Virus record (IMG/VR): IMGVR_UViG_3300017780_002571
Coordinates: 1-64,000 of that record
Strand: one strand, 5' to 3'
Origin: a virus
DNA length: 64,000 nt
The notes below the pieces were generated by a model. That model had not been told where the DNA came from. It saw only the letters and a program-made list of their open reading frames with translations, and did no database searches. The translations under genes were made by a program, and so were the position numbers. Shown piece after piece: positions 7,108 through 60,077 of this stretch. Numbering within the stretch: position 1 is the first letter of the stretch; every line of letters begins with the position of its first letter.

Positions 7108-7622
7108 GATGGTACAACCTCTCCGTCCTTGATGATGTATGGGAATGGCTGATACGCCACGAACCCCTCTGCGCTCTTTACCATTACAGCGATTGATCCG
7201 GGATTTAGCTTCTCCCACTCGAATGCCATACGTTGGACCCAGAGGGCGCGATCCTTTAGAAGCTCATAGGGGATCGGGCACTTTGTGTTGGAGGCCACGA
7301 TAAACTCTGTAACCTCCATGTTGGAAGGCCACAGGGGGTAGAACTGACAATCCAACGGTTTCAAGTCTTTACCGTCACAGAGTCTAGTGCAATTAACTGC
7401 AATTACACCATCCTTAGCTACGGGGTTTAAGTGGTCAGTTTTGAGGTCGAGGGATTTAGCCCGGTCCATCTCGCCGGGTAACAAGGAAATCCAGTTACCT
7501 AGGGCTCCGAACTTGCAACAAGCGAATCCACACAAATGGGTCCGAGACGAGCAGGCCTCGAACACTCCGTCCTCCCCCTCTACAACTCCTGTGCCAGTTA
7601 CAATTTTTATTGGAAATGTCAT
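7104..7622 (-). CDS. YkgJ-like Cys-cluster (Zn/Fe-S) protein
   Basis: C....CGFACC ... C...C......KPLDCQFYP pattern. Confidence 0.7.
   Translation of the reverse strand: MTFPIKIVTGTGVVEGEDGVFEACSSRTHLCGFACCKFGALGNWISLLPGEMDRAKSLDLKTDHLNPVAKDGVIAVNCTRLCDGKDLKPLDCQFYPLWPSNMEVTEFIVASNTKCPIPYELLKDRALWVQRMAFEWEKLNPGSIAVMVKSAEGFVAYQPFPYIIKDGEVVPS
7387..7402. repeat. 16-bp palindromic site
   Basis: GTGCAATTAACTGCAA, in CDS. Confidence 0.8.
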
Positions 7623-7629
7623 GATGGTC

Positions 7630-8490
7630 CTAATACATTTTTCCGCCAGTGAATGATGGGGCGAATTTGGGTCGTTTGGCTGGTGGCAAGGTAGGGTAAT
7701 CTTTCATCCAATACTTCTCCCCCATATAGGTTCGCTTGTTGGAATGATTGTCCCCCTTCCCCTGCTGGCACCACTCGACCCACACTCTGCGAGGTCGAGG
7801 GGCTATCGAAATGCAATACACATTGGACTTGTCCCATTGCATTAAGAGGTCAATATCTAAGTTTAACATCACCCAAGACGCAAACTCAGAGCGACTTACT
7901 TCGCCGTCCTCCACCGCATACGGGAGGATATCTATCCGAGCATAGACCTTTTGGCCGTAGGTCCCACGGTCCCAGTTGTGGGGAGAGGATTTGGTTGGGC
8001 CGATGTCTGGCCAACGGCTGGACATTATCTCCCTTGAGGAGTACCCGTAGGTTATGGCAAAGGAGCCAAATTGCTCCAAAATGGGCTCACAGACCTTTTC
8101 GCACAACTCCCGAGCAGACCGCTCGACCATCTCAGGGTGCTCGGGAATGTTGGGAATCCCCATGACTGAGCCGTAGGCGTGGAACATGAAGTCTCGCAGC
8201 ATGAGGTTCTTAGACACCCGAGTCCTAAGCCACTGGTCATAGTTCTCGATCAAATATTGGACTTCATTAGGGTTGTAGTCTCCACGCAAACGCATGAACT
8301 CATGGGCCGGATTCAACACTGGAAAGCAAGCCTCAGGATTCGCAGCCATGGCTTCCTTTACGTGCTTGCATGGGCCTTTAGCGTACTTAAACATCGGGCA
8401 AGTACAAGTGGCCTTGGAAAGATCAACCGTATAGAACACCCCCGGACTCGCTGCACTCTCCACCTGAACAATCACCTCTGAATTTGTCAT
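7630..8490 (-). CDS. SWIM zinc finger fused to peptidase M15-like domain
   Basis: YTVD.....CTCP.F.....PCKH (SWIM); RVSKNLMLRDF..NIP...LCEKVCEPI...FG...ITYGY..S.H...D (M15-like). Confidence 0.65.
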   Translation of the reverse strand: MTNSEVIVQVESAASPGVFYTVDLSKATCTCPMFKYAKGPCKHVKEAMAANPEACFPVLNPAHEFMRLRGDYNPNEVQYLIENYDQWLRTRVSKNLMLRDFMFHAYGSVMGIPNIPEHPEMVERSARELCEKVCEPILEQFGSFAITYGYSSREIMSSRWPDIGPTKSSPHNWDRGTYGQKVYARIDILPYAVEDGEVSRSEFASWVMLNLDIDLLMQWDKSNVYCISIAPRPRRVWVEWCQQGKGDNHSNKRTYMGEKYWMKDYPTLPPAKRPKFAPSFTGGKMY

Positions 8491-8512
8491 CCTCAATTTC
8501 TCCTTAATTTGT

Positions 8513-8540
8513 ATTATATCAGGGTTTTACCGTTTGGCAA
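8513..8540 (-). promoter_or_regulatory. Sigma70-like promoter
   Basis: TTGCCA-16-TATAAT with TGn extended -10, upstream of an AAGGAG RBS. Confidence 0.75.
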
Positions 8541-8562
8541 ATAATTTCAACCCCTTGCCTCT

Positions 8563-8997
8563 TTACTCTTCCGGTAGACTCCAAGCCTCGTGGTACACAT
8601 TTAGGAGCTTAGCCGCTTGGATAGCTTGTAGGTACGAGTTGGTCCCTGAGGTGGGTGTCCCTAGCACGTACTTCAGTTTCTTCCACTCACCCGCCTTATC
8701 TGGTTTCTTCAGATCATTCATCAGGTCGTAGGTTGGTGGGATATGGGATATGAACGCATCTAGTCCAAAGGCTGGTATTGGCTCTAGATAGGAATGAGGG
8801 ACTCTCCATACCTTCATACAGTGAGGACAGGAGTACTCTCGCATCTTTAGGAGTACATCCTCTTTCACATCTAGGTCAGGGTGCTCCCAACGTACTGGAG
8901 AGTCTGGGTCATACTTTGGACTAGTGAGGTACTCTGTACAGAGCTCTACTAGATCACTTGAACCTACTGCTTTTGGGGATGTCTTTTTGATAATCAT
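8563..8997 (-). CDS. Hypothetical protein (CPHC knuckle)
   Basis: ORF with GGAG RBS, fits operon spacing. Confidence 0.65.
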   Translation of the reverse strand: MIIKKTSPKAVGSSDLVELCTEYLTSPKYDPDSPVRWEHPDLDVKEDVLLKMREYSCPHCMKVWRVPHSYLEPIPAFGLDAFISHIPPTYDLMNDLKKPDKAGEWKKLKYVLGTPTSGTNSYLQAIQAAKLLNVYHEAWSLPEE

Positions 8998-9021
8998 GGT
9001 GATAGTTCTCCCAAAAATTTA

Positions 9022-9037
9022 GTGCTGTTAATTGCAC
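9022..9037. repeat. 16-bp palindromic site
   Basis: GTGCTGTTAATTGCAC, intergenic. Confidence 0.75.
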
Positions 9038-19504: not shown

Positions 19505-20497
19505 CTAAATGGGCACGTGATCTTTCAAGAGGGCTTCGATGCGCTCTGGGCTCATGGCTCCGGCATCACCTTCACTCTTTGTTGGTATGAGGTCCACTAT
19601 GGGGTACCCCGGTAAAAACTTTCGTATGGACTCACGGGCCGCGTCTCCGCCCTTGCCATGGTCATAGAACGTCACGATTGAGTCTGCATCAGAAATACGT
19701 TTCACCTTGGTCATGGATAAGCCGGAGGTGAATGATGCCAGAACATTCTCGTAATGCTGATAGATTCGTGCGAAGTCAATAGGCCCCTCGCACAGGACTA
19801 CAGGCTCATCGAGGTTCACCGTGTTCTCGCCCATCCAGCAGTGCATGTTGCGCTTACCCTTGTACCCGTACTGGAAGTACCGTAGCACACCCTCATCGTG
19901 CTTGTCGTCCTTGGTAGGCTCGGTCCCGATGTAGCGCCCCTGCATGCCCATTATCTCCCCCTTGAAGTTTCGGAATGGGAACCCCACGCGCTGTTGCTGA
20001 GGGTCGTACCGAACATCAAGGTCCAAGAGGGTGGACTTCATGATCCCACGGCCAGTGCAGTACTCAACAGCCTCTGGGAAGTCAAGGGCGGACTTGAAGG
20101 ATGCCAGCCACTGAGTAGGGAACACAGTCTGAACCTGCTTGACCTTGGACTCGAAGTCGGGGATGTCTTGAGCGGTGAGCTCCATCTCCTCGAACTCAGA
20201 CGCCACAAGATTTGCAGCTAATTGCAATTGGTAGTGGGGCGCGTACTCTGGATTCTTTCGTAGGCCAAAACGAATGTCCAACAAAAGGTCCGTCAGGTCG
20301 CCGGAGTACCCACAAGACAAGCACTTGCACCGTGACTTTTTCTTGGGGTCAGTGGAGACTGCAAAGGCCATAGAAGGCTCAGAGCCATGCTTCCAGCGAA
20401 TAGGGCAAGTGCCGAGCACCCACCCAGTTCTGGAGCCGATGGCACTTGAGCCAACTAGCATCAGCAGTTGCTTGATCTTGTCAGGCTTCACTTGCAC
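19505..20497 (-). CDS. DNA primase (Zn finger + TOPRIM)
   Basis: CP..H ... CLSC; YC..RG; EGPID; YD.G.GG; DAG. Confidence 0.88.
   Translation of the reverse strand: MQVKPDKIKQLLMLVGSSAIGSRTGWVLGTCPIRWKHGSEPSMAFAVSTDPKKKSRCKCLSCGYSGDLTDLLLDIRFGLRKNPEYAPHYQLQLAANLVASEFEEMELTAQDIPDFESKVKQVQTVFPTQWLASFKSALDFPEAVEYCTGRGIMKSTLLDLDVRYDPQQQRVGFPFRNFKGEIMGMQGRYIGTEPTKDDKHDEGVLRYFQYGYKGKRNMHCWMGENTVNLDEPVVLCEGPIDFARIYQHYENVLASFTSGLSMTKVKRISDADSIVTFYDHGKGGDAARESIRKFLPGYPIVDLIPTKSEGDAGAMSPERIEALLKDHVPI
20212..20227. repeat. 16-bp palindromic site
   Basis: TTGCAGCTAATTGCAA, in primase gene. Confidence 0.75.
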
Positions 20498-21800: not shown

Positions 21801-21828
21801 AGTGTAGCAGAAAATAATAGTTTGCACA
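21801..21828 (-). promoter_or_regulatory. Sigma70-like promoter
   Basis: TGTGCA-16-TACACT with TGn extended -10. Confidence 0.6.
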
Positions 21829-21843
21829 ATTAATTTCACACAT

Positions 21844-25357: not shown

Positions 25358-25554
25358 GGCTTGTCCTTTGCCTCAATGGATTCCCCAAGGCTCTCCGTGT
25401 ACTCCACAAGGTCTGCAGCATGGTCAACGAACTTGTCCCGGCCTGCTTGAAACCCTCCGGCGATAGCTTCCCAGATATACCCCGCTACTGCGCTTATTGG
25501 CCCAATGAGCAGGGCGGTAATCAGGACCGTCAGGATTTTGATGGCGTTCTTCAT
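25354..25554 (-). CDS. Small membrane protein
   Basis: Hydrophobic N-terminal helix; coupled ORF. Confidence 0.65.
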   Translation of the reverse strand: MKNAIKILTVLITALLIGPISAVAGYIWEAIAGGFQAGRDKFVDHAADLVEYTESLGESIEAKDKP

Positions 25555-29467: not shown

Positions 29468-29947
29468 TTATTCGTTGCAGTTAATTGCAAAGTCCCGGCT
29501 GTGAAACTCCCCCACGTTCAAGCCGAACAGCTCCCGATTGCCATGGTTCCAGAGGATCGAATAGATACCCGTCTTCACGGCAGTGACTCTTGCGTACACG
29601 ATATCGAATGGGATTCCGAAGTAACTTGAGCCTAGAGCCCTCCACGTTGGGTCAATCACATTCCCAGCCGAGTCCACACACCAAGCATGGTGCATTGGAA
29701 TAACTGTGGTGGCGTACCCCTCAACATACGTTAGGCCCTCCTCATGAGCCAAGTGCAGGGCGTTGGAGAAACACTCACCCATCTTGCCGTACCCCACAGA
29801 GTCTGGCTTGATGGTAGGTGCCCACAACTTCCCATACTGAGCCAATAGGTGGTAGGGAGACTTCACACCTTGTTGAACTCGGGTGTACATGCGGATGTGA
29901 TCCTCAGCGGAGGTGTTCACGGCGTCTTCGTTAAAGGTTTGTTTCAT
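29468..29947 (-). CDS. Transglutaminase/papain-like Cys-His-Asp protein
   Basis: ECF.NA ... YVEGY ... HAW ... IDPTW. Confidence 0.65.
   Translation of the reverse strand: MKQTFNEDAVNTSAEDHIRMYTRVQQGVKSPYHLLAQYGKLWAPTIKPDSVGYGKMGECFSNALHLAHEEGLTYVEGYATTVIPMHHAWCVDSAGNVIDPTWRALGSSYFGIPFDIVYARVTAVKTGIYSILWNHGNRELFGLNVGEFHSRDFAINCNE
29475..29490. repeat. 16-bp palindromic site
   Basis: TTGCAGTTAATTGCAA, just upstream of a promoter. Confidence 0.8.
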
Positions 29948-29948
29948 G

Positions 29949-30460: not shown

Positions 30461-30718
30461 CTAGTTAACCACGTTGAAACCCGATTGGATGGCGACCTGA
30501 AGTCCACCATCTTCTTCGTTAGTACCAAAGATCATAGGAAAGAAGCGACCATCCACGGTAGCGAGGACCGTCACGCGAAACACGTACCGGATGTTGTCGT
30601 TAGGGGAGCCAAGTTTCTTCTCTACCGCCTTCAAAGCATTGGCTGCAGTGGCGTAGGTCTTACTTGGGGTGATGTTCAGGACAACGTACATAGGAGTCTC
30701 CAGTGCAATTAATTTCAA
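30461..30718 (-). CDS. Hypothetical protein
   Basis: KTYAT.ANA..AV...GRF.P motif; start uncertain. Confidence 0.65.
   Translation of the reverse strand: MKLIALETPMYVVLNITPSKTYATAANALKAVEKKLGSPNDNIRYVFRVTVLATVDGRFFPMIFGTNEEDGGLQVAIQSGFNVVN
30703..30718. repeat. 16-bp palindromic site
   Basis: GTGCAATTAATTTCAA. Confidence 0.8.
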
Positions 30719-30996: not shown

Positions 30997-31012
30997 GTGC
31001 AATTAGCTGCAA
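30997..31012. repeat. 16-bp palindromic site
   Basis: GTGCAATTAGCTGCAA, upstream of a promoter. Confidence 0.75.
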
Positions 31013-34217: not shown

Positions 34218-36947
34218 TCAGTGAGATATGGAATCAATAAGCCTGACAGCCACCAAAGGCTGCCCAGCCTCATAGCTTGTGTGAGTGGGGACCTCCAAGT
34301 CGGTTACATGAGTAGCCTCCAAGGACACCGAAGTATGCCACAACTCGCCCAATCCTGAGATGTGCGTAGCCTCTAAATGTTGACTCAGGTGGTGGACATC
34401 TAGTCCGAAATCGCGTAGGACTTCCCGGAACGCTACAAGGTCCCCGGATAGGGCTGCTTGAACTAGTGCCGCCGCCGCTATCCGAACCTGAAGGTCCAAG
34501 GTAGCTGACGTGTTCGGAGTCAGGCTAGCGTCAGCAGCTAGGCGAGATGCCTTAGCCATACTGGCTTGAGAGGATGCTAGGGCCGTAGCACTAGACCTCA
34601 TGGCCTTCTCTACAGCGATGGTGGCCTGCAGAGTGGACGCTACCAAAGCGATAGCAGCCAATGGTATCCGAGCCACTAGTGCAGCCGCTAGCACTGCCTG
34701 AGACTGAGATGTGGACCCCAGAGGCTTGCCTACCGACGCTGTACACGCCATCTGTGCAATTGATTGCACTGAGCTGGCAAGCTGAACGCTAATCTGCAAG
34801 GCCCCCGATAGCGCGGCGCGAGACTGAGCTGCAGCCTCCAATGGCACAGCAGTAGCGGCCAAAGACGAAGAGCTAGAAGCCTGCGCTACTGCCCCGGCCT
34901 GCAGACGTACTACGACTCCAAGAGTAGCTTGAACAACGGTGGCAGTCACAGCCGCTGCGGACAGCAACGAAACCGATTGACCCACTGCAGCCAGCCCAGA
35001 GGCTATGACTTGGGCGGAGGTCGCCAATGGCTTCGAGACCGAGACCTGAGCAGTCAGGGAACTGAAAGCCTGTGGTCCGGTGGCAAGGACTACCCGAACC
35101 CCAAGGCCGGAGGTCAGTACGGCTTGAACCTGTGGAGCTGCAGCCAGCGACACTCGAACGGTGGAGGCCCCCACCAAAGTTGCCTGCCCCAGCGCGGCAG
35201 ATGCAAGGGACTTGGAAACCTGCAGTGTGGCCCCAAGCGAGGCTGTGGCGGCACCCGTGGTGGCTAGGGTTGCGTTGCCCAGTGACTCCAGCTCGGAGGT
35301 GAATATGGCCAGAGCTGAGGGGCTGGCAGACAACCGGACCTGAACACCCAGAGAGGCGGTCCCGGTGGCTACAGCGTTGGCGACGGTACCTACTGGCTTG
35401 GACACCTGCAGGGCTGCAGACACTACCGTGGCCGTAGAGGCTAGGCTTCCAAGAATCTGGATGCTCTGGGAGACTGCGGCTATCGAGGTCGATATGCTTT
35501 GCGCGGCTGCAGCCAGAGGCACTGCATGGGCCACTGAAGCCGTCAGAGACGCAACCCCCTGAGCAGAGGCCCCTAGAAGGGGTCGAACACCCAAACTGGG
35601 GGTAAGGGTGGCAACTGCCTGTGATGCGCTGGCTAAGGGCACTCCAAGGCCCAGCGCGGGGGTAAGCGTTGCGATGGCCTGAGGCCCTGCCCCGAGTCGT
35701 GCCGTCACAGACACTGCAGCCGTCAGGGTTGAGGATGCCTGAGGGGCGCTGGCCAGAGCTACCCGAACCCCCAGAGGGGCAATCAGGGTGCTAACCGCTT
35801 GAGCAGCGCTTGCCAGAGGGACCCTCAGGTTCAGGGCGGCGGTCAGGGATGCAACTGCCTGAGCCGTGGTCGCTAGGGTGGAGTCCCCCAGAAGCGAGGC
35901 AGAGAGCTGGGCTAGGGCCGTGGCGCTGGAAGCCAGTGGCTTGCCCACTGCGAGAGATGCCGTAAGGCTGGATACCGCTTGAGCAGCACTGGTGCACTGA
36001 GCCCCATTGGCGAGGGGGGCAGACAGAGTGGCAATGGCTGTGCCAGTAGAGGCCAACGACACTCGCACACCCAACCCAGCGGACAGAGACGCCAGACCCT
36101 GAGGAGTTGCAGCCAGTCGAACCTGAGGGGCTACCGCTGCAGTAAGGGTGGCAGTTGCAGAGCCTGACGCCGACAGGGCCACACGATTCAGGACCCCCGC
36201 TGCCAAGGACGATTCAGCTAGTGCCGTGGCACCCAAGTCCTTAGAGACGGCAAGGGTGGCGGTGGCCGAGGCCGTTGCAACAGCGAGAGCCTCCAGCGTG
36301 TTGGCCCCGGCTGCGGCAGTGTCGAACTCGATCCACGATACCCGGACCTCCATCCCGAAGGTGGAAGACATGGAGGCCTGTGCAACCGCCCCGGCAGCTA
36401 GACTAACCACAACTGTGGTCGATGCAGTCGTGGTGCTCAGGGCAGATGCATTCGCTGACAACGACACGCCGGAGGTTAGTGCTGAGAGGGCAGTCGCCTG
36501 TCCTGTAGCCAAAGTTGCCAGTGGCTTGCCTACGGAGGCCTCTGCACTTAGGGCACCAATTGCCTGAGGGGTAGCGGCTAGCCTTGCACCAACCGCCAGA
36601 GCTGCGGTGGCCGTGGCAACCCCAGTTGGGCCAGCCTGCATGCGAACAGTAGGCTGGACCCCGGCAGTCAGTGTGGCAATGGCAGTAGGTGCGGATTGCA
36701 GCCTAGCAGTCTGGAGTATCGCCCCAGTAGCCGTGGCGGTTACGGTGGCCGTGGCTCCGAGGAACTTCTGAACCCGCAAGCCTGCAGTGGCCGTTGCAAT
36801 TGATTGCACAGCCGAAGCCAGAGTACCGTCCCCACTTGGAGGAGTCCCCACCACAAGCCCGGTGTCAAACCAAGCTTCAGGGCGTAGCTCCGCATCAAAC
36901 CAAGCGTCTGGACGTAGCTCCCCGTCGAACCAGCCCAGTTGGCTCAT
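34218..36947 (-). CDS. Ala/Ser/Thr-rich repetitive virion protein (~20-aa period)
   Basis: Dozens of (V.V.)LA....A.A.L.A.L repeats; N-terminal WFD.ELRP repeats. Confidence 0.75.
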   Translation of the reverse strand: MSQLGWFDGELRPDAWFDAELRPEAWFDTGLVVGTPPSGDGTLASAVQSIATATAGLRVQKFLGATATVTATATGAILQTARLQSAPTAIATLTAGVQPTVRMQAGPTGVATATAALAVGARLAATPQAIGALSAEASVGKPLATLATGQATALSALTSGVSLSANASALSTTTASTTVVVSLAAGAVAQASMSSTFGMEVRVSWIEFDTAAAGANTLEALAVATASATATLAVSKDLGATALAESSLAAGVLNRVALSASGSATATLTAAVAPQVRLAATPQGLASLSAGLGVRVSLASTGTAIATLSAPLANGAQCTSAAQAVSSLTASLAVGKPLASSATALAQLSASLLGDSTLATTAQAVASLTAALNLRVPLASAAQAVSTLIAPLGVRVALASAPQASSTLTAAVSVTARLGAGPQAIATLTPALGLGVPLASASQAVATLTPSLGVRPLLGASAQGVASLTASVAHAVPLAAAAQSISTSIAAVSQSIQILGSLASTATVVSAALQVSKPVGTVANAVATGTASLGVQVRLSASPSALAIFTSELESLGNATLATTGAATASLGATLQVSKSLASAALGQATLVGASTVRVSLAAAPQVQAVLTSGLGVRVVLATGPQAFSSLTAQVSVSKPLATSAQVIASGLAAVGQSVSLLSAAAVTATVVQATLGVVVRLQAGAVAQASSSSSLAATAVPLEAAAQSRAALSGALQISVQLASSVQSIAQMACTASVGKPLGSTSQSQAVLAAALVARIPLAAIALVASTLQATIAVEKAMRSSATALASSQASMAKASRLAADASLTPNTSATLDLQVRIAAAALVQAALSGDLVAFREVLRDFGLDVHHLSQHLEATHISGLGELWHTSVSLEATHVTDLEVPTHTSYEAGQPLVAVRLIDSISH
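34754..34769. repeat. 16-bp palindromic site
   Basis: GTGCAATTGATTGCAC, in CDS. Confidence 0.8.
36794..36809. repeat. 16-bp palindromic site
   Basis: TTGCAATTGATTGCAC, in CDS. Confidence 0.8.
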
Positions 36948-38212: not shown

Positions 38213-38662
38213 CTACTCAGTTGAAGTTAATTGCAAAGATAGCCCAGCCCCAGCCGTGATGCTGGCTATCTGGGGGGCGGTCAAGGTTTGGGAGTACAGC
38301 GTGTCAGTGCCCGTCAAGGCGTGGCTCCACGTGGCAATAGTCGTGCCCCCTTGCCGTAGAGTTACGGTCAGGCCGTTCCCGGAGCTGGAACTGGCACGGT
38401 ACCTAAGCACCTGAATGGCACTCCCCGGATGGGAGGTCTCCGATAAGGCCACCTCACAAGTGCTGAGGGACCTAACGTAGATGTAGTCCGCATCATTAGG
38501 GGTCTCCTCGTCCAACATGGAATAGAGGTCGGTACCAGTGCTTGGTAGCCACTCCCCCAACCCCACATCAGTAGAGGGTCTGCCAAGGGTACCAACAGAG
38601 ACAACTGAGCCCCAGAATCCTGCGGACCAGAAGCCGGGAGCCCAGAAGCCGGGAGCCCACAT
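38213..38662 (-). CDS. Putative virion protein with N-terminal WAPGF repeats
   Basis: MWAPGFWAPGFWSAGFWG; 15-bp DNA repeats. Confidence 0.65.
   Translation of the reverse strand: MWAPGFWAPGFWSAGFWGSVVSVGTLGRPSTDVGLGEWLPSTGTDLYSMLDEETPNDADYIYVRSLSTCEVALSETSHPGSAIQVLRYRASSSSGNGLTVTLRQGGTTIATWSHALTGTDTLYSQTLTAPQIASITAGAGLSLQLTSTE
38221..38236. repeat. 16-bp palindromic site
   Basis: TTGAAGTTAATTGCAA, at gene end. Confidence 0.75.
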
Positions 38663-43751: not shown

Positions 43752-43767
43752 TTGCAGTTAATTGCAC
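43752..43767. repeat. 16-bp palindromic site
   Basis: TTGCAGTTAATTGCAC, overlapping a stop codon, upstream of a promoter. Confidence 0.8.
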
Positions 43768-47799: not shown

Positions 47800-48231
47800 T
47801 CAGACTCCGTGGTATCGGAACATGCCAACCAGCTTGATGGTGGACAGAAACACCAGACGTTGCTCCACCACTTTCCCGGAACCACTGGAGGAGTGGATCA
47901 GGCTGCAGCGACCACCGGGATAGTCCCCGACGATGCCTACATGCTGAGGGTCAGACTCAATGGCGATGCAACACACGTCCCCAAGCTGAGCATCCTCAAA
48001 TGGGACCTCTCTCAGATTCTGTGCAATTAGTTGCAGAAAGCTAGTCCCATCTGGCACTCTGGGATAGCAGTTGACATCGAAGTTCGGATCAACAAGACCA
48101 AGATTTCTGGCCACCCCAATTACCAACCCCACGCAGTCCACACCCACCCCCTTCACCCGTGCTTGATGGTGAAAGGGAGTACCAAGCCAGCTTCTTGCCT
48201 CGGTAACAATGGATTCTTTTGAAACGGTCAT
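47800..48231 (-). CDS. NlpC/P60 tail-associated peptidase
   Basis: ARSWLGTPFHHQ..VKGVGVDC.GL..GV, HVGI, IH. Confidence 0.92.
   Translation of the reverse strand: MTVSKESIVTEARSWLGTPFHHQARVKGVGVDCVGLVIGVARNLGLVDPNFDVNCYPRVPDGTSFLQLIAQNLREVPFEDAQLGDVCCIAIESDPQHVGIVGDYPGGRCSLIHSSSGSGKVVEQRLVFLSTIKLVGMFRYHGV
48021..48036. repeat. 16-bp palindromic site
   Basis: GTGCAATTAGTTGCAG, in NlpC/P60 gene. Confidence 0.75.
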
Positions 48232-53071: not shown

Positions 53072-56000
53072 TACGAATTCCTAGATGTGGCGCGATCTGC
53101 AGAGCGCATAGCCTCTTCCTGCAGTTGGGCTTGAGATTTACGGAAACTGTTTGCGTCAGGGGTTGTGATGTTCTGCACCACGGTAACACTCGGCCTTTGA
53201 CCTTGTGCAATTGATTGCACTGGGGACCCCCGAGCTGGCATGACTGAGCCCCCGGATGCGAAGTGAGTACGCCCGGGGAAGTTGACCGCACTGGGAGTCA
53301 TCTTCCCGAAGTTGATTGCGTTCAGGAACGGTAGCCATGCAGCGGTTGACTTGGCATTCACCACGTACTCACCAGCGGAACCCCAGATGGGAACACTGTC
53401 ACTGGTGCCTGTGCCGGGGCCGTTGATCGGGCCGCCTTCAGCAAAGAATGAAGCAGCGAGATTGAACAGGCTACCCACTCCACCATCACCCCCACCAGAG
53501 CCACCAGAACTGCTTGTAAGGCTACTAAAAATGCTGGTTAGGGTGTTGCCTAGGGAACTGGCCAACTCGCCTAATCCAAGGCCCCCACCGCTAGCCTGCC
53601 CAGATAAGCTGGAGAACACCCCAGACAGAGACTCGGACATGGAAGAGAACAGACCAGAGATGCCGCCACCCTCAGCCGTCAGGGACTCGCTGATACCAGA
53701 GAAGGCTTCCCCGATGCCAGTGCCCAACCCCTTGATGGAATCAAAGACCGTACCACCAACACCTTGGAAGACTGCACCAACGCTGCTTAGAGCCTCTCTG
53801 GACACGTCTTCGAAGCCCTTGAAGGCCTCCCCAGCCTGCTCCTTGATGTAGGCCAGCGCGGTGCCTGCAGGGTCTTGGGCGGCAGCCTCCAAGTTAATGC
53901 CAGCGCCGTCACCCCCGGCACCACCTGCGCCACCTGCAGCCCCGGGCGCAGCGGGTAGGCCCTTCACCACGTTAACGAAGAGAGGATCGGTAGGCTTCTC
54001 GCCCCGGGTCTTGGTCTTTTGGCCGGAGAACAAGGAACCCAAGGATGCAAAGATGCCACCGCCCCCATCCTTGGAGGATGCACTGGTGAGTGCCCCAGCG
54101 GCGGTCTCTGCGAGGTTGCGGCTGATGTTCTGGTTCACAGACTTGATCAGATCGTTCTGCACTCCCTTGAGCACCTGTCCGATGTTCTGAGTGCCGTCAA
54201 GCAGCTTCTCAATGCCGGAGGACAGACTGTCGGTGAACACCTGTTGCAAGGTGTCGCCAAAGTCCTTCAGACTGCCCTTCAACTGGGCGATCTGGGTCTC
54301 GAACTGCAGGACCTGTGCCTGAGCATCAGCCGCAGTGGTGGCGTTGTCCTTGTTGTCCTTGTTCTGATCGTAGATGGCCTGCTGAGCAGCTTGCTGCCTG
54401 CGTAGTAGCTCAACCCGAGCAAGGATCAACCGATTACGAATGTCTTCCGCCTGATTGCTGGTCAGGGCGGAGGAGCGGCGCTGCAAGTTGACCGTGGCCT
54501 CTGTGAGGTCCAGTAGGCTGGTCTCCAGCGATATGCGCTTGGTCAGAAGCTCATTAGCCTGCGATAGCTTCAAAGCCTCAACGTCCCGGACTTGCAACGA
54601 GCGAAGTGCTGCAGCCTCATCTGTGCTACCAGCCTTACGAATCTTCTCTTCGTACTGAGCATTCAGAGTGGCTATGGCGGCGGCCTCCCGGTCCACACTG
54701 GTGGATAGGAGGTCTCGCTTTAGCTGTGCCACTCGAAGTTCGACATCCTTGCGCTGATTCTCTTGCTCCCGGAGCGTGGCTCTTTCAACCCCAGTCTCCC
54801 GGGCTAGAACCTCTTGGCGTCTAGCAGACAGGGCTTGGATTTCCGCTTTCTTGGAGTCCCGCTCAGCCTGAGTCCCGCTAGGAGCAGATTCGGCTTTCTT
54901 CAAGTCTGCAGCGATGTCCTTCAGCTCCAAAGCGGATTCACGCTTGGCAAGGTCCCGCTTACGGGCATAGTACTCAGACGCTGATATCAGGTTATCTGCA
55001 TAGGCATTCTCATTGATGGCTGCAGCCTCGGCCACAGCGATGCGGCTCAGGGAGTTCTCCTCCTTGGCAGTCTGGGCGGTAAGTGCCACTACCGCTGCAG
55101 CATGTGCCTTTCTCTGGGCAATGATTTGGGCATTCCCGGCTTTATTGACGGCTTGACGTTCCTTGAGCTGAGCGGCGGCGGTAGCCTTGCCAGCATTAAG
55201 GGTGGCGTCTATGCTGGGCAGTCCCAGCTCAGTGTTCTTGCCAGACAGCGCTGCTGACAATGCGTTGAATCGTGCAAGGGCCTCAGGCGAAGAGATGTCA
55301 TTGGCCAGCTTGTTGTACTCCACGAGGAGTAGGGTCATGGTCCTGCGTGCTTCGTCAGTACCCTTGGTCAGGCCAGTAAGACCGGACTCAATGCCGTTCA
55401 GGATGGTATTCGTCTTCTCGTCTATACCCGTGGCGATGACCCCAACATCAATCCCGATTGCCTTCAAGGCATCAGTACGCGCTTGAATCCTAGCGGCGTC
55501 AGCGATGTCGGAAGCCCTCTTTGCCGCGTCGGCCTTCTCCAAGTCCTCTCGCTGCTTCTTTAGGCCCTCATTACCGGGAGCCTTGTCGAGAGCCTCCCCT
55601 GCTTTCTTGAGCTGGGCGTCCAGAACCTTACGCTGCTCAGACAAGTCTTTCTGCTCTGCAGTGAGCTGGGCCTTCTGCGCGGCAAGCTGTGCCTTCTGAG
55701 CATCCGTAGTGGCCCCGAATTCCTTGGACTGCACGTCCCGCAATTCTTCACTTACTTTCTTGAGCCGAATAGAGACCGCAGTGGACTCTTCCATGGCCTT
55801 GGAATATGCCTTGAACGCTGCAGCCCCATCCAAGATCGTATCCGATGGGATGGCATCCTTGGACTTGTTGAAGTACTCATAGAGCTTGTAGGCTCCGAAA
55901 CCCAGCGCAGCTATAGCGGCCACAGCCAAGGTCACAGGTGCGAAGAGGGTAGCTAGGGTCCCGATGAATGCCACGAGGCCGCCAGTCCCTAGGGCCAGCA

Positions 56001-57177
56001 ACCCCGTAAACGTGGCCACGGCCCCGCTCACCACCCCGAATGCCGCGATAGCCCCGGTGATCAGGGATGTGACTACCCCGATTACCTTTAGGGCTACCCA
56101 AGCTGTTGCAAGTAATTGCAATGCATCCACTACCAACAGGATGATGTTTTTGTTCCTCTCCATCCATTTGATGAAGTCCACGATCTTCCCGGACACCGAA
56201 GTGATTGCGTCCGCAAGAGTGAACATCCCTGTGGCGGAGTCCCCTGTCGCGCTTTTCACCCCGGCAAAGGTGTTCATCATCGAGTTGATGGCCTTGAGGA
56301 TATCCCCTGTGGCCTGCACCAGTGCGGCATACGCGGGAAGTAGCAAGTTCCCGATAGAGAGTTGAATTTCCTTGATGATCCGAGGCAGGGAGCTAAGCTG
56401 CTTCCCGGCGCTAGACATGGAGGCCTCATAGGTCCCGGTAAGACCTGCGGCAGCGGCCAAGGTGGCATTACCGAACGCGATTACTTGCTCAGTCTTGGTC
56501 AGCTCCCTGCCAGCCAAAGCTGCGGCTCTAGCCAGCGCAGCCTCCCGATCCACGATCAGGCCCATGAACTTCAGGCCTTGGGTATCCATCTGTTGGACGT
56601 TGGTGACCAACCGCTGCATGGTCTCGGAAGAGCCCTCCCCAGACACCACGGCCAAGTCTTGGGCGGCCCGTGCGAAGGGTGCCGCGAAGTCCAAGGGTAT
56701 CTTAGCCTGCAACAGACGGGTCAGAGACTCCCGGCTAGCGTCTGCGGTGATGCCGAGTCGCTGAACCGCCTTGTCCGCTTTAGTGAGTTCGTCCCGCGTG
56801 TACCCTGCGTTCTTACCTACGACCCCCAGAACAATGTCGAGAGTCTCAGCCCGAGCTGCAACGTCAGCCAGACTCTTGACAAAGCCCACGGCCTGAATGG
56901 CAAGGAAGCCCCCGGCTAGGAACTTAGCGCCCCTAACCGCACCTGCGAAAGCCCCCTCCAGTTGAGAGGCAGTATCCTTGAGGCCCCCCATGGTAGCGGC
57001 TGCGGCCTTGGCGTTAGCTCCGAGGCCCCCTAGCTGCTTCTCTAAGCCGCCAAGGTTCACCCCACCGACTCCGGCTATGGCTTCCTTGGTTTGAGAAAAG
57101 TCCCTCCGAATATCCGTCAGGGTTTTCCCAACCGTGTTTACGGCGGAGATGACTATCTGCAGATTATTCGTTGCCAT
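53071..57177 (-). CDS. Tape measure protein
   Basis: 1368 aa helical, Ala-rich; C-terminal FAEGG...GPGTGTSDS.P...S.GEYV and I.TPDANSFRKSQ.Q. Confidence 0.92.
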   Translation of the reverse strand: MATNNLQIVISAVNTVGKTLTDIRRDFSQTKEAIAGVGGVNLGGLEKQLGGLGANAKAAAATMGGLKDTASQLEGAFAGAVRGAKFLAGGFLAIQAVGFVKSLADVAARAETLDIVLGVVGKNAGYTRDELTKADKAVQRLGITADASRESLTRLLQAKIPLDFAAPFARAAQDLAVVSGEGSSETMQRLVTNVQQMDTQGLKFMGLIVDREAALARAAALAGRELTKTEQVIAFGNATLAAAAGLTGTYEASMSSAGKQLSSLPRIIKEIQLSIGNLLLPAYAALVQATGDILKAINSMMNTFAGVKSATGDSATGMFTLADAITSVSGKIVDFIKWMERNKNIILLVVDALQLLATAWVALKVIGVVTSLITGAIAAFGVVSGAVATFTGLLALGTGGLVAFIGTLATLFAPVTLAVAAIAALGFGAYKLYEYFNKSKDAIPSDTILDGAAAFKAYSKAMEESTAVSIRLKKVSEELRDVQSKEFGATTDAQKAQLAAQKAQLTAEQKDLSEQRKVLDAQLKKAGEALDKAPGNEGLKKQREDLEKADAAKRASDIADAARIQARTDALKAIGIDVGVIATGIDEKTNTILNGIESGLTGLTKGTDEARRTMTLLLVEYNKLANDISSPEALARFNALSAALSGKNTELGLPSIDATLNAGKATAAAQLKERQAVNKAGNAQIIAQRKAHAAAVVALTAQTAKEENSLSRIAVAEAAAINENAYADNLISASEYYARKRDLAKRESALELKDIAADLKKAESAPSGTQAERDSKKAEIQALSARRQEVLARETGVERATLREQENQRKDVELRVAQLKRDLLSTSVDREAAAIATLNAQYEEKIRKAGSTDEAAALRSLQVRDVEALKLSQANELLTKRISLETSLLDLTEATVNLQRRSSALTSNQAEDIRNRLILARVELLRRQQAAQQAIYDQNKDNKDNATTAADAQAQVLQFETQIAQLKGSLKDFGDTLQQVFTDSLSSGIEKLLDGTQNIGQVLKGVQNDLIKSVNQNISRNLAETAAGALTSASSKDGGGGIFASLGSLFSGQKTKTRGEKPTDPLFVNVVKGLPAAPGAAGGAGGAGGDGAGINLEAAAQDPAGTALAYIKEQAGEAFKGFEDVSREALSSVGAVFQGVGGTVFDSIKGLGTGIGEAFSGISESLTAEGGGISGLFSSMSESLSGVFSSLSGQASGGGLGLGELASSLGNTLTSIFSSLTSSSGGSGGGDGGVGSLFNLAASFFAEGGPINGPGTGTSDSVPIWGSAGEYVVNAKSTAAWLPFLNAINFGKMTPSAVNFPGRTHFASGGSVMPARGSPVQSIAQGQRPSVTVVQNITTPDANSFRKSQAQLQEEAMRSADRATSRNS
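53205..53220. repeat. 16-bp palindromic site
   Basis: GTGCAATTGATTGCAC, in tape measure gene. Confidence 0.8.
56106..56121. repeat. 16-bp palindromic site
   Basis: TTGCAAGTAATTGCAA, in tape measure gene. Confidence 0.8.
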
Positions 57178-57908: not shown

Positions 57909-58925
57909 TTAGCGAACCATCATCTGGCGGAAGAACTTGCTTCCGTCAGCACGGCCAGCGTCTGCCAACACGTTTCCTTCCAAGGCGAAGTTGTTGATGG
58001 TATCACCAATCAACGCCATTTCCTTCAGAGGATCGGTCAGGAATCGGAAGATGTCCACAACCACTGGGTTGTTGTTGTCCGCAGTGTTCAGACCCTCGAA
58101 GCGCATCCAGCGCTCTTGAGAACCGTACACCAATGGGTTCACGATGAACTGACTGATGTGGGTGTAATCCACTGCCAGAGCTGCACCATCAAACACTGCC
58201 AGAGGCGTGCCTATGGTGATTGTGCGACCAAAAGTGTTGGTAGCCAGAACCACACCAGTGGGGGTGGCAGACACCACGAGGTGGGTTTTTCCGTTCAGGT
58301 AGGCTGCATCCGCACCAGAGAAGCCAGCCAAGGCCACGCGGCTGCCAGCCACAGCGGTGTTAGCCACGGTGACGGAGGTAGTAGCGCCGACCACAACTGC
58401 GGTAGGAACCACGCCACCCACGGTACCGTTCGTGGAAATTGGAGTGACAGCACCATCGTTGAACATGATGGACCCGCCCTCAGGGTTCACCTTGAAGTCG
58501 TAGGGGGTAGCGTTGTTCGTGAACGCGGTCAGGGCTTGAGCCCCACGACGAACGGCAACAGCGGATACGCCCAAGGCACCCAGAGGTGTGACCTTGCCAA
58601 AGTAAATCTTGTGAACCTCACCCACTACCGCAGTGGAGGGGCGCTCAGTGCTGCTACCGCGAAGGGCGATAGCCAAACCATTGGAGTCAAAGTGCTCCAC
58701 GGTCATGCTCAAGTTAGCCTTGGTTTCAGTGGTCATGCGCAAGTCGATAGCGCGTGCGCCAGTCTTCGACTCTTTGTGCTCGATGACCGAGGTAGCCACG
58801 GTGATCTTCAGGTCCGACACGTTGCCCACGGGCACTAGGCCTGCAGGGTTGCCAGCCGCATCGCGCATGCCAATAAGCACAACGCCCTGTCCAGAAAAGT
58901 AGTAGTCAGTATTGTCCCATGCCAT
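57909..58925 (-). CDS. Major tail (tube) protein
   Basis: YFSGQG.V, VGNV..L, EHKES.TG, RFEGLNTA.....V.VD, L.G.VLAD. Confidence 0.88.
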   Translation of the reverse strand: MAWDNTDYYFSGQGVVLIGMRDAAGNPAGLVPVGNVSDLKITVATSVIEHKESKTGARAIDLRMTTETKANLSMTVEHFDSNGLAIALRGSSTERPSTAVVGEVHKIYFGKVTPLGALGVSAVAVRRGAQALTAFTNNATPYDFKVNPEGGSIMFNDGAVTPISTNGTVGGVVPTAVVVGATTSVTVANTAVAGSRVALAGFSGADAAYLNGKTHLVVSATPTGVVLATNTFGRTITIGTPLAVFDGAALAVDYTHISQFIVNPLVYGSQERWMRFEGLNTADNNNPVVVDIFRFLTDPLKEMALIGDTINNFALEGNVLADAGRADGSKFFRQMMVR

Positions 58926-58980
58926 GATGATTCTCCTAAAAAGATGAGTGCAGAGGGGCGCTAGGCCCCCCGAGAGTTAA

Positions 58981-59994
58981 TTACTTCTTGTTGGTCCAGA
59001 AGAGGATCAACGTGGCGGCGGCCAAGTTGGTGGTGGAGCGGATGGCACCAGTGTTAGTGCCGCCAGCCAGAAAAGCGCCAGACACCCCAACGTTGGTGCA
59101 AGCTTCGGCCACTGCAATGGCGTTACCAGTGGCAGGGGACATATGGCTCAGAGTCACCACACCAGTGGTTGGGTGAGCAGTAGCCACCACATCCAAAGTG
59201 CCGAACTTGAACTGGTAGGCGTTGATCAGCTTGGCGAGGTACTGGCCGCAAGCCAAGTCTGAACCCGCTGCGCCACCACCGGGGAATGCGGGAGCGGCTG
59301 CGCGGGTGTAGAACTGAACGTCACCTGTGGGTGTCGCAGAAGCAGTGAAAGTCACGCCGTTGATTACGGCAGTGTTAGTCGCCACCACGCTGACGGGGGT
59401 CAGGGTTGCAGTGCCAGTGTTGGTGCCTGCAGCAGCCAGAACCGTAACGGTACCAGTCACTTGAATGGCGTTGCCGGGACCTTCCACGGTTGCAGTCAAG
59501 GTAACCACGTTGGCTGCTACCGAAGCCACCACTGCGGATTGACGTTGGCCGTCACCATTCAGTTGAGACTCGTAGCGGTTCTCGTAGGCATTGATGGCTG
59601 CAGCCAAAGATGCGGCCATTGCGTTGTTGTTGCCTGCAGAAATCAGGACATCGTTAGCCTTGGTAGGCACGGCACGCCATGTGTAGGTGCTACCTTCGAT
59701 GGTGAGAGTCTCACCCGCTACTGGGTTACCCGAGATGGTGAATGTGGCGGTGGCCTTCACTGGCTGGATAGTGATGTTGGCGCGGTCACTGACGGGGGGT
59801 GCCCAAGTGTCGGCCAGCACGATAGCTTGGATGATCGTGTCTTCAGGACGGATCAAAGCCACGGGCATGTTGGTGCCAGCGGCTACGCCGTCGATCACTT
59901 CAACTTGTGCGCCTTGCATTTCTTGCAGAGCGGCACGCAGCAACTGAGGATTCGCCAACAGGGCGTGAGATTGAGGAAGGGTATTCAAGGGCAT
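58981..59994 (-). CDS. Virion structural/decoration protein with duplicated sheath-insert-like domain
   Basis: Two copies of AT.T....G....I.G.T.T...A..LA..IN...V.A.....VVTL...G..GNAI. Confidence 0.6.
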   Translation of the reverse strand: MPLNTLPQSHALLANPQLLRAALQEMQGAQVEVIDGVAAGTNMPVALIRPEDTIIQAIVLADTWAPPVSDRANITIQPVKATATFTISGNPVAGETLTIEGSTYTWRAVPTKANDVLISAGNNNAMAASLAAAINAYENRYESQLNGDGQRQSAVVASVAANVVTLTATVEGPGNAIQVTGTVTVLAAAGTNTGTATLTPVSVVATNTAVINGVTFTASATPTGDVQFYTRAAAPAFPGGGAAGSDLACGQYLAKLINAYQFKFGTLDVVATAHPTTGVVTLSHMSPATGNAIAVAEACTNVGVSGAFLAGGTNTGAIRSTTNLAAATLILFWTNKK

Positions 59995-60038
59995 GAAAAT
60001 CTCCTAAAAAATAGGGGTTTAAGATTGAGGACAGGTGG

Positions 60039-60067
60039 ACTCTACCAGATCAAACCGCTGTTTGCAA
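60039..60067 (-). promoter_or_regulatory. Promoter whose -35 lies within a palindromic site
   Basis: TTGCAA-17-TAGAGT with TGn extended -10. Confidence 0.55.
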
Positions 60068-60077
60068 TTAATTGCAC
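60062..60077. repeat. 16-bp palindromic site
   Basis: TTGCAATTAATTGCAC, overlapping a -35 box. Confidence 0.85.

What the first reader, a model, noticed from the sequence alone, without database searches (positions are those of the whole stretch)
7387..60077. Genome-wide 16-bp palindrome KTGCAATTAATTGCAM, at promoters and written into protein sequences
Seen: 17 copies with at most 2 mismatches (7387, 9022, 13194, 16593, 20212, 23944, 29475, 30703, 30997, 34754, 36794, 38221, 43752, 48021, 53205, 56106, 60062), plus degenerate copies at 8535, 13217 and 21824, mostly 2-5 kb apart. A rough estimate of chance expectation in a GC-rich 64 kb is below about 0.1. Most lie in CDSs and leave recurring peptides (VQSIA three times, LQLIA, LQLLA, VQLTA, FAINCN, IAVNCT) in unrelated proteins. 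Others overlap or abut -35 boxes (8535, 13194, 21824, 29475, 30997, 43752, 60062). Established analogies: mycobacteriophage stoperators, parS, and matS/Noc-type chromosome-organising sites. Inference: one dimeric phage protein coats the genome for global repression, segregation, or compaction and protection. Candidate binders are 12198-13106 (two sites at its own promoter), the MerR-like protein, the wHTH-alphaCTD protein and the ParB-like proteins.
Basis: partly seen in the sequence, partly recalled or inferred. Interest (0 to 1): 0.8.

Follow-up and report, generated by a model that had tools for sequence, protein, structure and literature searches.

The report
Evenly spaced palindrome lattice in phage
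This 102-kb phage and a wide clade of 80-110 kb phages of proteobacteria keep one palindrome (TGCAA-N4-TTGCA) about every 2-4 kb, even inside genes, most likely as docking sites for the phage's own ParB/KorB-like DNA-binding protein; no paper I could search describes it.

Summary
Observation confirmed. All 17 copies are at the stated coordinates (0.05 expected), and the complete 102,276-bp genome has 29. A synonymous-codon shuffle removes almost all in-gene copies (29 to 11.2 +/- 1.3), so they are kept at the DNA level. Sites are about 6-fold enriched in non-coding DNA. They are spaced more evenly than random in 10 of 14 genomes, also under a null that keeps the intergenic/CDS split.

The core TGCAA-N4-TTGCA recurs with lineage-specific inner bases in 13 related phages. 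Eight are cultured: RcZahn, RcMenchie, DLP5, KarBoss, VHS1, TM16, RHph_I4 and HJ05. BHU-1 is weak. Two phages of one host strain use different dialects, which points to a phage-encoded reader.

Its fold resembles ParB/KorB DNA-binding domains but has no CTPase domain. It is present in 14/14 genomes. A site lies upstream of its gene in 12/14, against 14% of all genes. No ParA is encoded. The alpha-CTD, MerR-like and ParB_N candidates fare worse.

The function (global regulation or organisation, KorB/Noc-like) is inferred. This scan has already reported the same lattice on at least seven other genomes. No searchable paper describes it.

The parts
7388..7401 (.). site, 1 mismatch (TGCAATTAACTGCA); inside ORF 7104-7622(-), read as IAVNCT
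9023..9036 (.). site, 2 mismatches; intergenic, 26 nt upstream of ORF 8563-8997(-)
13218..13231 (.). degenerate second site (3 mismatches), 23 bp from 13195; the same 23-bp pair occurs upstream of the orthologs in G003 and G007
13159..13186 (-). sigma-70-like promoter TTGGCA-16-TG-TATAAT (11 of 12 matches) of the candidate reader gene
12198..13106 (-). candidate reader (P0001, 302 aa, phrog_17202): disordered Lys-rich N-terminus, ParB/KorB-like helix-turn-helix domain (about residues 76-205), small C-terminal helical domain
16594..16607 (.). site, 1 mismatch; in ORF 16177-16650(-), VQLTA, 43 nt from the ORF start
20213..20226 (.). site, 2 mismatches; in the primase-like gene 19505-20497(-), LQLAA
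23945..23958 (.). exact site; near the 3' end of gene 23804-24862(-), LQLIA; the equivalent position is occupied in 5 relatives
29476..29489 (.). site, 1 mismatch; last codons of ORF 29468-29998(-), 12 nt upstream of TTGGCA-16-TATAAT for the AAA ATPase gene 28056-29396
30704..30717 (.). site, 1 mismatch; at the 5' edge of ORF 30461-30718(-)
30998..31011 (.). site, 2 mismatches, with a 3-mismatch neighbour at 30983; 11 nt upstream of TGTACA-18-TATAAT
34755..34768 (.). site, 1 mismatch (TG centre); deep in the 909-aa gene 34218-36947(-), VQSIA
36795..36808 (.). site, 1 mismatch; same 909-aa gene, VQSIA
38222..38235 (.). site, 2 mismatches; 9 nt from the stop of ORF 38213-38662(-)
43753..43766 (.). 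site, 1 mismatch; intergenic, 16 nt upstream of TTGACC-17-TAAACT
48022..48035 (.). site, 1 mismatch; at a gene boundary between the tail genes
53206..53219 (.). site, 1 mismatch; in the 1368-aa gene 53071-57177(-), VQSIA
56107..56120 (.). site, 1 mismatch; same 1368-aa gene, LQLLA
60063..60076 (.). exact site; intergenic, 69 nt upstream of gene 58981-59994(-)
8536..8549 (.). 3-mismatch copy; intergenic; individually not above chance
21825..21838 (.). 3-mismatch copy; intergenic; individually not above chance
5099..5890 (-). rival or partner: ParB_N (CTP-binding type, GHTRRLAA) protein without a confident ParB HTH

Best explanation
The repeats are binding sites for a dimeric, phage-encoded helix-turn-helix protein, most likely the product of window 12198-13106 (-).

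The site is an 18-bp palindrome, W-K-TGCAA-N4-TTGCA-M-W. The two TGCA blocks lie one helical turn apart.

The protein has a ParB/KorB-type DNA-binding domain. It has neither the ParB N-terminal CTPase domain nor a ParA partner. It probably controls its own promoter through one or two sites centred near -50 and -73.

Selection keeps a site about every 2-4 kb along the whole chromosome. Sites use intergenic slots where these exist. In long genes they are written into codons, in the two frames that avoid the TAA stop.

My inferred mechanism has two parts. Promoter-proximal copies modulate RNA polymerase: they end 8-18 nt upstream of the -35, which is UP-element and class-I territory. The full lattice gives the bound protein genome-wide coverage for silencing, bridging or compaction, or maintenance of the episomal form. 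This resembles how KorB on RK2 or Noc on the Bacillus chromosome use dispersed palindromes.

Shown here: the sites, the selection on them, the even spacing, the clade-wide conservation with dialects, and the fold and promoter association of the candidate. Inferred: physical binding, dimerisation and the biological role.
For: Enrichment: 17 sites against 0.05 expected. 29 in the genome with reversed control 0.

Selection at the DNA level: a synonymous-codon shuffle gives 29 to 11.2 in G000, 52 to 33 in G003, 35 to 12 in DLP5 and 43 to 19 in KarBoss.

Placement: 124 of 303 sites are intergenic or at gene boundaries, against about 7% non-coding DNA.

Even spacing: gap CV is 0.49-0.62 against a null of about 1. 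It is significant in 10 of 14 genomes, also under a null that preserves site class.

Clade-wide conservation with dialects:
- TTAA centre: G000, G003, G007, KarBoss
- TCAA: DLP5, RcZahn
- TCGA: RcMenchie
- TGCAAC..GTTGCA: RHph_I4, HJ05
- TGCAAG-CG: BHU-1
- TGCACT-TA: L198
RcZahn and RcMenchie share the host strain YW1 but differ in dialect.

Candidate protein:
- AF2 model with pLDDT above 90 over residues 70-200.
- Matches to ParB-parS 6s6h (Z 8.1, 120 aa), KorB-operator 1r71 (Z 7.4, 107 of 114 aa), Spo0J 1vz0 (Z 7.2) and KorB 8qa8 (Z 6.5).
- Ortholog in 14/14 genomes.
- A site within 260 nt upstream in 12/14 genomes, against 14% of 1159 genes and 0-50% for 15 other core families.
- The same layout (site, 8-9 nt, -35, about 17 nt, -10) in at least 8 divergent genomes, always in the local dialect.
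- The recognition helix Y-R-K-x-x-Y is conserved along with the invariant outer TGCAA. Homologs without an array lack it.

Negative control: Trogglehumper has neither the protein nor the sites.

Lifestyle: DLP5 persists as a phagemid (PMC5834331).
Against: No binding experiment exists.

The fold Z-scores (7-8) lie in the range that helical domains can reach by chance. The top hit is the Raf1 alpha-domain (Z 9.8), not ParB.

The protein co-occurs with the whole replication module, so presence or absence cannot separate it from other core genes. Primase is also in 14/14 genomes.

Residue-to-base covariation is not clean and is confounded with phylogeny. DLP5, L203 and BHU-1 lack Tyr133 yet keep TGCAA.

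VHS1 and TM16 show no good site upstream of the ortholog.

G007, G002, VHS1 and BHU-1 show no significant evenness. G002 is a fragment and BHU-1 has 5.5 kb of N.

The biological role is not addressed by any data here.
Confidence: 0.55

Rival explanations
1. The reader is the ParB_N protein next to the terminase (window 5099-5890), or a two-part ParB. In the two-part version the HTH protein 12198-13106 recognises the site and the separate ParB_N CTPase is recruited, giving a CTP-driven clamp that spreads from each site.
For: The ParB_N domain keeps the G-x-x-R-x-x-A signature. Its fold matches PadC (Z 11.0) and KorB (Z 10.3). The protein occurs in 11/14 genomes, and two of the three absences are fragments. 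A spacing of 2-4 kb matches the reach of sliding ParB/KorB clamps (PMC11790492). DLP5 and DLP3 authors link their ParB-domain proteins to the phagemid state.
Against: The C-terminal half shows no confident ParB-type HTH (6s6h Z 2.4). The protein is absent from the complete VHS1 genome, which still has sites. Only 1 of 11 genes has a site upstream. Close homologs are widespread in phages as ParB_N-methyltransferase fusions. Nothing here shows an interaction between the two proteins.
Confidence: 0.15
2. The sites are only promoter-associated operator or activator sites (class-I position) of a phage transcription factor. The in-gene copies then mark internal promoters rather than a genome-wide lattice.
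For: Sites are about 6-fold enriched in non-coding DNA. There is a recurrent layout: site, 7-9 or 17-18 nt, -35, N17, -10. It occurs in G003, G006, G007, RcZahn and G000 (13195, 29476, 30998, 43753).
Against: No flanking promoter element is conserved when all 303 sites are aligned. Most window sites have no detectable sigma-70-like promoter downstream. Many intergenic copies sit between a stop codon and the next RBS. Even spacing persists under a null that preserves site class. Copies lie deep inside 900-1400-aa tail genes.
Confidence: 0.12
3. The palindrome is the target of an enzyme rather than a structural binder. Examples are a nicking or recombination-initiating endonuclease, a priming or helicase-loading signal, or a site-directed DNA modification.
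For: The candidate gene closes a recombination module (RecA, Cas4-like nuclease, two resolvases). DLP5 DNA is heavily modified. Even spacing would suit replication or recombination initiation.
Against: The best candidate has no recognisable catalytic domain. Symmetric cleavage would fragment the genome. Packaging strategies differ across the clade (DTR here; P1-type headful and circularly permuted in the Rhodobacter phages) while the motif stays the same.
Confidence: 0.1
4. A conserved host protein (a nucleoid-associated protein or global regulator) reads the sites.
For: The 5-N4-5 palindrome geometry resembles CRP/FNR-type sites (my own knowledge). Positions at -50 and -60 are typical of activators.
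Against: Dialects follow the phage, not the host. RcZahn (T[C/T]AA) and RcMenchie (TCGA) both grow on R. capsulatus YW1. TM16 and RHph_I4 both infect Rhizobium yet differ in the half-site. Hosts span Alpha- and Gammaproteobacteria.
Confidence: 0.05

Closest known systems
KorB and its 12 O_B operators on IncP plasmid RK2 (PMC11790492)
   Same: A ParB-family HTH domain reads a 13-14 bp palindrome that is dispersed over the whole replicon. Some sites lie next to the -35, some are far from any promoter, and the system is autoregulated. The candidate's fold matches the KorB DNA-binding domain on its operator (1r71, Z 7.4, 107 of 114 residues).
   Different: The candidate lacks the CTP-binding N-domain that makes KorB a sliding clamp. 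No IncC/ParA partner is encoded and no KorA-like partner was looked for. There are 29-55 sites per genome instead of 12. Sites are evenly spaced and often written inside coding sequence. The setting is a tailed phage, not a plasmid.
ParB-parS and Noc-NBS (chromosomal ParB-family systems)
   Same: Palindromic sites of 14-16 bp are read by a dimeric ParB-type HTH. Noc sites are scattered over the chromosome and need no ParA. The fold matches ParB-parS 6s6h (Z 8.1) and Spo0J 1vz0 (Z 7.2).
   Different: There is no fused ParB_N CTPase domain. parS sites cluster near the origin, whereas these sites cover the genome evenly. No ParA is encoded. A membrane-targeting helix like Noc's was not shown.
17-bp dyad repeats of Cluster O mycobacteriophages, TGTTCGG-N3-CCGAACA (PMC4351075)
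   Same: More than 30 copies of one dyad-symmetric repeat lie throughout a siphovirus genome. They lie between and within genes, have a variable centre and no orientation bias, and their function and reader are unknown.
   Different: The sequence, host phylum and phage lineage are unrelated. That paper reports neither even spacing nor a candidate reader.
Stoperators of Cluster A mycobacteriophages (L5 gp71 repressor)
   Same: Dozens of sites for one phage protein are spread over the genome, giving global control (my own knowledge).
   Different: Stoperators are asymmetric 13-bp sites oriented with transcription, and they lie in short intergenic gaps. The sites here are symmetric, show no orientation bias, and about 60% lie in coding sequence.
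Dispersed sopC-like centromere sites of the linear plasmid-prophage N15 (my own knowledge; not checked in a paper here)
   Same: A phage that lives as a plasmid carries palindromic ParB/SopB-type sites dispersed over its genome. A relative of the phage studied here, DLP5, is a phagemid.
   Different: N15 has four sites and a full SopA/SopB pair. Here there are 29 or more sites and no ParA/SopA.

Membership tests
ParABS partition system (type Ia) | The centromere-binding protein has a ParB_N CTPase domain fused to the HTH | tested here: not met
   P0001 has no ParB_N domain. Residues 1-61 are disordered and the fold match starts at about residue 76. Pfam and NCBIfam give no hits. ParB_N lies in a separate protein, 5099-5890.
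ParABS partition system (type Ia) | A partner ParA (deviant Walker A) ATPase is encoded | tested here: not met
   PF01656 finds 0 hits in the complete genome, while all 14 control genomes hit. No credible ParA in the 14 genomes: the only KGGxxK[ST] match lies in a Gly/Thr-rich stretch of a 1499-aa RcZahn ORF.
ParABS partition system (type Ia) | Palindromic parS-like sites of about 16 bp | tested here: met
   The palindrome spans 14 bp (18 bp with flanks), with half-sites one helical turn apart.
KorB/O_B-type global regulator | ParB/KorB-type HTH DNA-binding domain | tested here: met
   Matches are 1r71_A Z 7.4 (107 of 114 aa), 8qa8_A Z 6.5, 6s6h_B Z 8.1 and 1vz0_A Z 7.2. Foldseek also lists ParB, Noc and Spo0J chains, at non-significant E-values. 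Caveat: Z-scores in this range are not decisive for helical domains.
KorB/O_B-type global regulator | CTP-dependent clamp (N-terminal CTPase domain) | tested here: not met
   The candidate has no such domain.
KorB/O_B-type global regulator | Multiple palindromic operators dispersed over the replicon, both promoter-proximal and distal | tested here: met
   The genome has 29 sites. A subset ends 8-16 nt upstream of a -35, and others lie deep in genes.
KorB/O_B-type global regulator | Operator at the regulator's own promoter (autoregulation) | tested here: met
   A site lies within 260 nt upstream of the gene in 12/14 genomes, against a 14% background. In the window it lies 8 nt upstream of the -35 of an 11/12-match promoter. 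This shows sequence placement only, not regulation.
KorB/O_B-type global regulator | The protein binds the palindrome and represses transcription | not testable with these tools
   This needs EMSA, ChIP and reporter assays.
Stoperator system (Cluster A mycobacteriophages) | Asymmetric sites oriented with the direction of transcription | tested here: not met
   The sites are palindromic. The asymmetric one-mismatch variants (TGCAG.. versus ..CTGCA) occur 6 to 5 on the two strands of a genome transcribed mostly one way.
Noc/NBS nucleoid occlusion | ParB_N CTPase plus an N-terminal membrane-targeting helix | tested here: inconclusive
   There is no CTPase domain. A conserved N-terminal peptide (K-S-P-x-M-K-L-M-K) precedes a disordered Lys-rich linker, but its role is unknown.

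The most novel reading that the evidence does not exclude
The lattice is a previously unrecognised way for a large clade of tailed phages to organise their chromosome. A CTPase-less ParB/KorB-type protein, possibly working with the separately encoded ParB_N protein as a split ParB, docks every 2-4 kb. It forms a genome-wide nucleoprotein scaffold needed for episomal carriage, global silencing, or protection of phage DNA. Each lineage evolves its own site dialect together with its reader, so co-infecting relatives do not cross-talk.
Probability: 0.25. Interest if true: 0.85.

Novelty: new variant of a known kind. Interest (0 to 1): 0.75.

Why it matters
Dispersed palindromes read by ParB-family proteins are known from plasmids (KorB) and chromosomes (Noc, parS). 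I found no report of an evenly spaced lattice that selection forces into coding sequence across a whole clade of 80-110 kb phages.

The clade contains cultured phages with genetic hosts: Stenotrophomonas DLP5 and DLP3, Rhodobacter RcZahn and RcMenchie, Vibrio VHS1-like phages, Rhizobium TM16 and RHph_I4, and Aeromonas HJ05. A specific candidate reader is now named. The question is therefore directly testable by EMSA, ChIP-seq and deletion.

Such work could explain how phagemid prophages such as DLP5 are silenced or maintained without ParA. It could assign a function to an abundant unannotated protein family (phrog_17202, with hundreds of metagenomic members). The lineage-specific dialects also offer a natural system for studying co-evolution of a DNA reader and its sites.

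Tried and rejected
- **Chance or composition:** rejected by dinucleotide shuffles, reversed-pattern controls and Markov simulation.
- **By-product of protein sequence:** rejected by the synonymous-codon shuffle.
- **Mobile or MITE-like repeat:** rejected, because nothing is conserved beyond 18 bp and the copies are in frame inside conserved genes.
- **Evenness as a side-effect of gene boundaries:** rejected by the null that preserves site class.
- **Rho-independent terminators:** rejected, because the stem is at most 5-6 bp with an AT-rich loop and there is no T-tract rule.
- **wHTH-alphaCTD protein 25554-26357 as reader:** rejected, because it occurs only in this genome.
- **MerR-like 16652-17122 as reader:** unlikely, present in 6/14 genomes.
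- **HTH gene 23804-24862 as reader:** unlikely, present in 9/14 genomes.
- **Sequence searches of the candidate:** Pfam, NCBIfam and PDB sequence searches found nothing.
- **Ribbon-helix-helix C-terminus:** my idea got no Pfam support and stays speculative.
- **Residue-to-base covariation:** suggestive but inconclusive.
- **Megablast of 20 kb against phages:** no match.
- **Literature:** the motif strings gave only an unrelated primer hit, and the RcZahn, DLP5 and DLP3 papers do not mention the repeat.
- **Host identity of G000:** not established. Relatives in MAGs are binned with Burkholderiaceae, Acetobacteraceae, Loktanella and others.

Full report
**1. Observation**

The pattern KTGCAATTAATTGCAM with up to 2 mismatches occurs 17 times in the window, at exactly the coordinates given. 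The expectation is 0.05, with a maximum of 1 in 100 dinucleotide shuffles.

The window is bases 1-64000 of a complete 102,276-bp virus record with a 123-bp direct terminal repeat. The whole genome has 29 copies and none of the reversed control.

The three 'degenerate' copies exist with 3 mismatches. That class is only weakly enriched: 5 observed against 1.6 expected.

The recurring peptides are real. They have a simple cause: frame 0 reads TGC-AAT-TAA, which contains a stop. Only two frames are usable, giving x-Q-L/S-I-A or A-I/V-N-C.

**2. Selection**

I permuted synonymous codons within each gene, keeping every protein and all intergenic DNA. This reduces the genome count from 29 to 11.2 +/- 1.3 (maximum 15). 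Ten of those are the untouched intergenic copies. Similar drops occur in G003, DLP5 and KarBoss.

So the coding copies are maintained by codon choice.

Across ten genomes, 124 of 303 sites are intergenic or at gene boundaries, against about 7% non-coding DNA.

Gaps between sites are more even than random. The gap CV is 0.57 in this genome against a null of 0.99 (P = 0.0003). The largest gap is 7.0 kb, against 12.2 kb expected. Evenness is significant in 10 of 14 genomes, also under a null that keeps the numbers of intergenic and coding sites.

Most in-gene positions are lineage-specific (29 of 35 position groups). A few are shared across very divergent phages, for example in the pyruvate phosphate dikinase gene in five genomes. 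This indicates turnover under continuing selection.

**3. Phylogenetic spread**

An exact-motif scan of IMG/VR found other viral records with 10-52 copies and reversed controls of 0. They are distant relatives with a syntenic replication module. Amino-acid identity is 49% for TerL and 34-47% for RecA, DnaB and the helicase.

The lineage includes cultured phages:
- Rhodobacter RcZahn and RcMenchie
- Stenotrophomonas DLP5
- Vibrio KarBoss and VHS1
- Rhizobium TM16 and RHph_I4
- Aeromonas HJ05
- Pseudomonas BHU-1

The invariant core is TGCAA-N4-TTGCA. The inner bases are lineage-specific:

| Dialect | Genomes |
|---|---|
| TTAA centre | G000, G003, G007, KarBoss |
| TCAA | DLP5, RcZahn |
| TCGA | RcMenchie |
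| TGCAAC-NN-GTTGCA | RHph_I4, HJ05 |
| TGCAAG-CG-YTTGCA | BHU-1 |
| TGCAA[C/T]-AT | TM16 |
| TGCACT-TA-AGTGCA | MAG contig L198 |

RcZahn and RcMenchie were isolated on the same strain (YW1) yet differ in dialect, and so do the two Rhizobium phages. This argues for a phage-encoded reader rather than a host factor.

Only W-K and M-W flanks are conserved beyond the 14 bp.

**4. Relation to promoters**

A subset of intergenic copies precedes a sigma-70-like promoter at a fixed distance. The gap to the -35 is 7-9 nt in G003, G006, G007 and G000, and 17-18 nt in the RcZahn early region.

In the window this holds for 13195, 29476, 30998 and 43753. The best case is 13195: TTGGCA-16-TG-TATAAT with 11 of 12 matches, and the site ends 8 nt upstream of the -35.

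Many other intergenic copies sit between a stop codon and the next ribosome-binding site. Most in-gene copies have no detectable promoter downstream. Promoters therefore explain only part of the array.

**5.

Core-proteome analysis leaves few conserved candidates. The product of 12198-13106 (P0001, phrog_17202, no Pfam or NCBIfam hit) occurs in all 14 genomes.

Its AlphaFold model was built from 36 homologs. It has a disordered Lys-rich N-terminus, a confident helical domain (pLDDT above 90 over residues 70-200) and a small C-terminal helical domain.

An all-against-representatives structural search returns several ParB-family DNA-binding domains. Several were solved on their palindromic sites:
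- ParB-parS 6s6h: Z 8.1
- KorB-operator 1r71: Z 7.4
- Spo0J 1vz0: Z 7.2
- KorB 8qa8: Z 6.5
- SopB, P1 ParB and VirB: Z about 4.5

Foldseek and atlas leads point to the same fold class. The Z-scores are moderate. The top hit is the Raf1 alpha-domain, whose Pfam annotation includes an HTH domain.

The most discriminating evidence is site placement. A site lies within 260 nt upstream of this gene in 12 of 14 genomes. The figure is 14% for all 1159 called genes, 1 of 11 for the ParB_N gene, and 0-50% for 15 other core families.

The site is always in the local dialect. At least eight divergent genomes share the same promoter layout. G000, G003 and G007 carry two sites 23 bp apart. In DLP5 the only TA-centred perfect palindrome is the one upstream of this gene.

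The predicted recognition helix (Y-R-K-x-x-Y) is conserved, as is the outer TGCAA. Homologs without an array lack it. L198, which has an altered half-site, has F-R-K. This covariation is confounded with phylogeny and inconclusive.

**6. Other candidates**

| Candidate | Window | Finding |
|---|---|---|
| RNAP alpha-CTD domain protein | 25554-26357 | Unique to this genome |
| MerR-like protein | 16652-17122 | In 6 of 14 genomes |
| ParB_N protein | 5099-5890 | See below |

The ParB_N protein keeps the CTP-binding signature and the ParB_N fold (PadC Z 11.0). It has no confident ParB HTH (6s6h Z 2.4). It is absent from the complete VHS1 genome.

No ParA-type ATPase is encoded. A classical ParABS system is therefore excluded. 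A split ParB, with the HTH protein and the ParB_N protein acting together in trans, remains possible.

**7. Context and prior knowledge**

DLP5 replicates as a phagemid when lysogenic and has heavily modified DNA (PMC5834331). The DLP3, DLP5 and RcZahn papers do not mention the repeat. The motif strings occur in no searchable paper except as an unrelated primer.

The closest described systems are:
- KorB and its O_B sites on RK2 (PMC11790492)
- ParB-parS and Noc-NBS
- the unexplained 17-bp dyad repeats of Cluster O mycobacteriophages (PMC4351075)

This scan has already reported the same lattice on at least seven other genomes, with similar conclusions. Those are unchecked AI notes, and I re-derived the points used here.

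**8. Verdict**

The role (global regulation, organisation, or episome maintenance) is inferred, not shown.

I class it as a new variant of a known kind: a ParB/KorB-like dispersed-palindrome system with four differences. It lacks a CTPase domain and a ParA partner. It is evenly spaced. It is partly written into coding sequence. It is conserved with dialects across a large phage clade.

Noticed in passing
window 25554-26357 (-): A 267-aa protein whose C-terminus is an RNA polymerase alpha-subunit C-terminal domain (PF03118, E 7e-11; rpoA models match residues 212-265). It has no homolog in the 13 related genomes. It could be a phage decoy or adaptor for UP elements or class-I activators.
   Followed up: partly
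G000 101135-102128 (outside the window, last 1.2 kb before the 123-bp terminal repeat): Three sites (101135, 101748, 102115) cluster at the right genome end, much denser than the spacing of about 3.4 kb elsewhere. RcMenchie and DLP5 also have a site within 70 nt of a record end.
   Followed up: no
window 5099-5890 (-) and 3552-5093 (-): Two adjacent ParB_N-type proteins lie just upstream of the terminase genes. The first has invariant Cys residues (C172, C191) in its C-terminal half and no recognisable HTH. Its close homologs elsewhere are fused to N6/N4 DNA methyltransferase domains.
   Followed up: partly
G003, G007, G006, G002, L200 (e.g. G007 78516-79034, G006 60924-61571): These phages carry a second, short paralog (170-245 aa) that consists of little more than the ParB/KorB-like DNA-binding domain of the candidate reader. 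G000 has only one copy.
   Followed up: no
No palindrome array lies in the surrounding 20 kb.
   Followed up: partly
G000 76374 and homologous codons in G003, G006, G007, DLP5: One in-gene site sits at the same codons (D/S-A-I/V-N/D-C-K) of the pyruvate phosphate dikinase-like gene in five very divergent phages. The PPDK-phosphatase module itself is conserved across much of the clade.
   Followed up: partly
Vibrio phage KarBoss (PQ758715), whole genome: Many KarBoss sites are hybrids, such as TGCAATTAAGTGCA. They join a TGCAAT half to the TGCACT half that is the sole dialect of MAG contig L198, as if the specificity were in transition.
   Followed up: no
window 49088-53071 (-): A 1327-aa tail protein combines seven or more RCC1 repeats (RCC1-like domain, E 2e-79) with a C-terminal DUF2460 (GTA-type tail) domain.
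   Followed up: no
window 7630-8496 (-) and 9635-10420 (-): A SWIM zinc-finger protein (also present in BHU-1) and a radical SAM protein flank the site cluster at 7388-9036.
   Followed up: no
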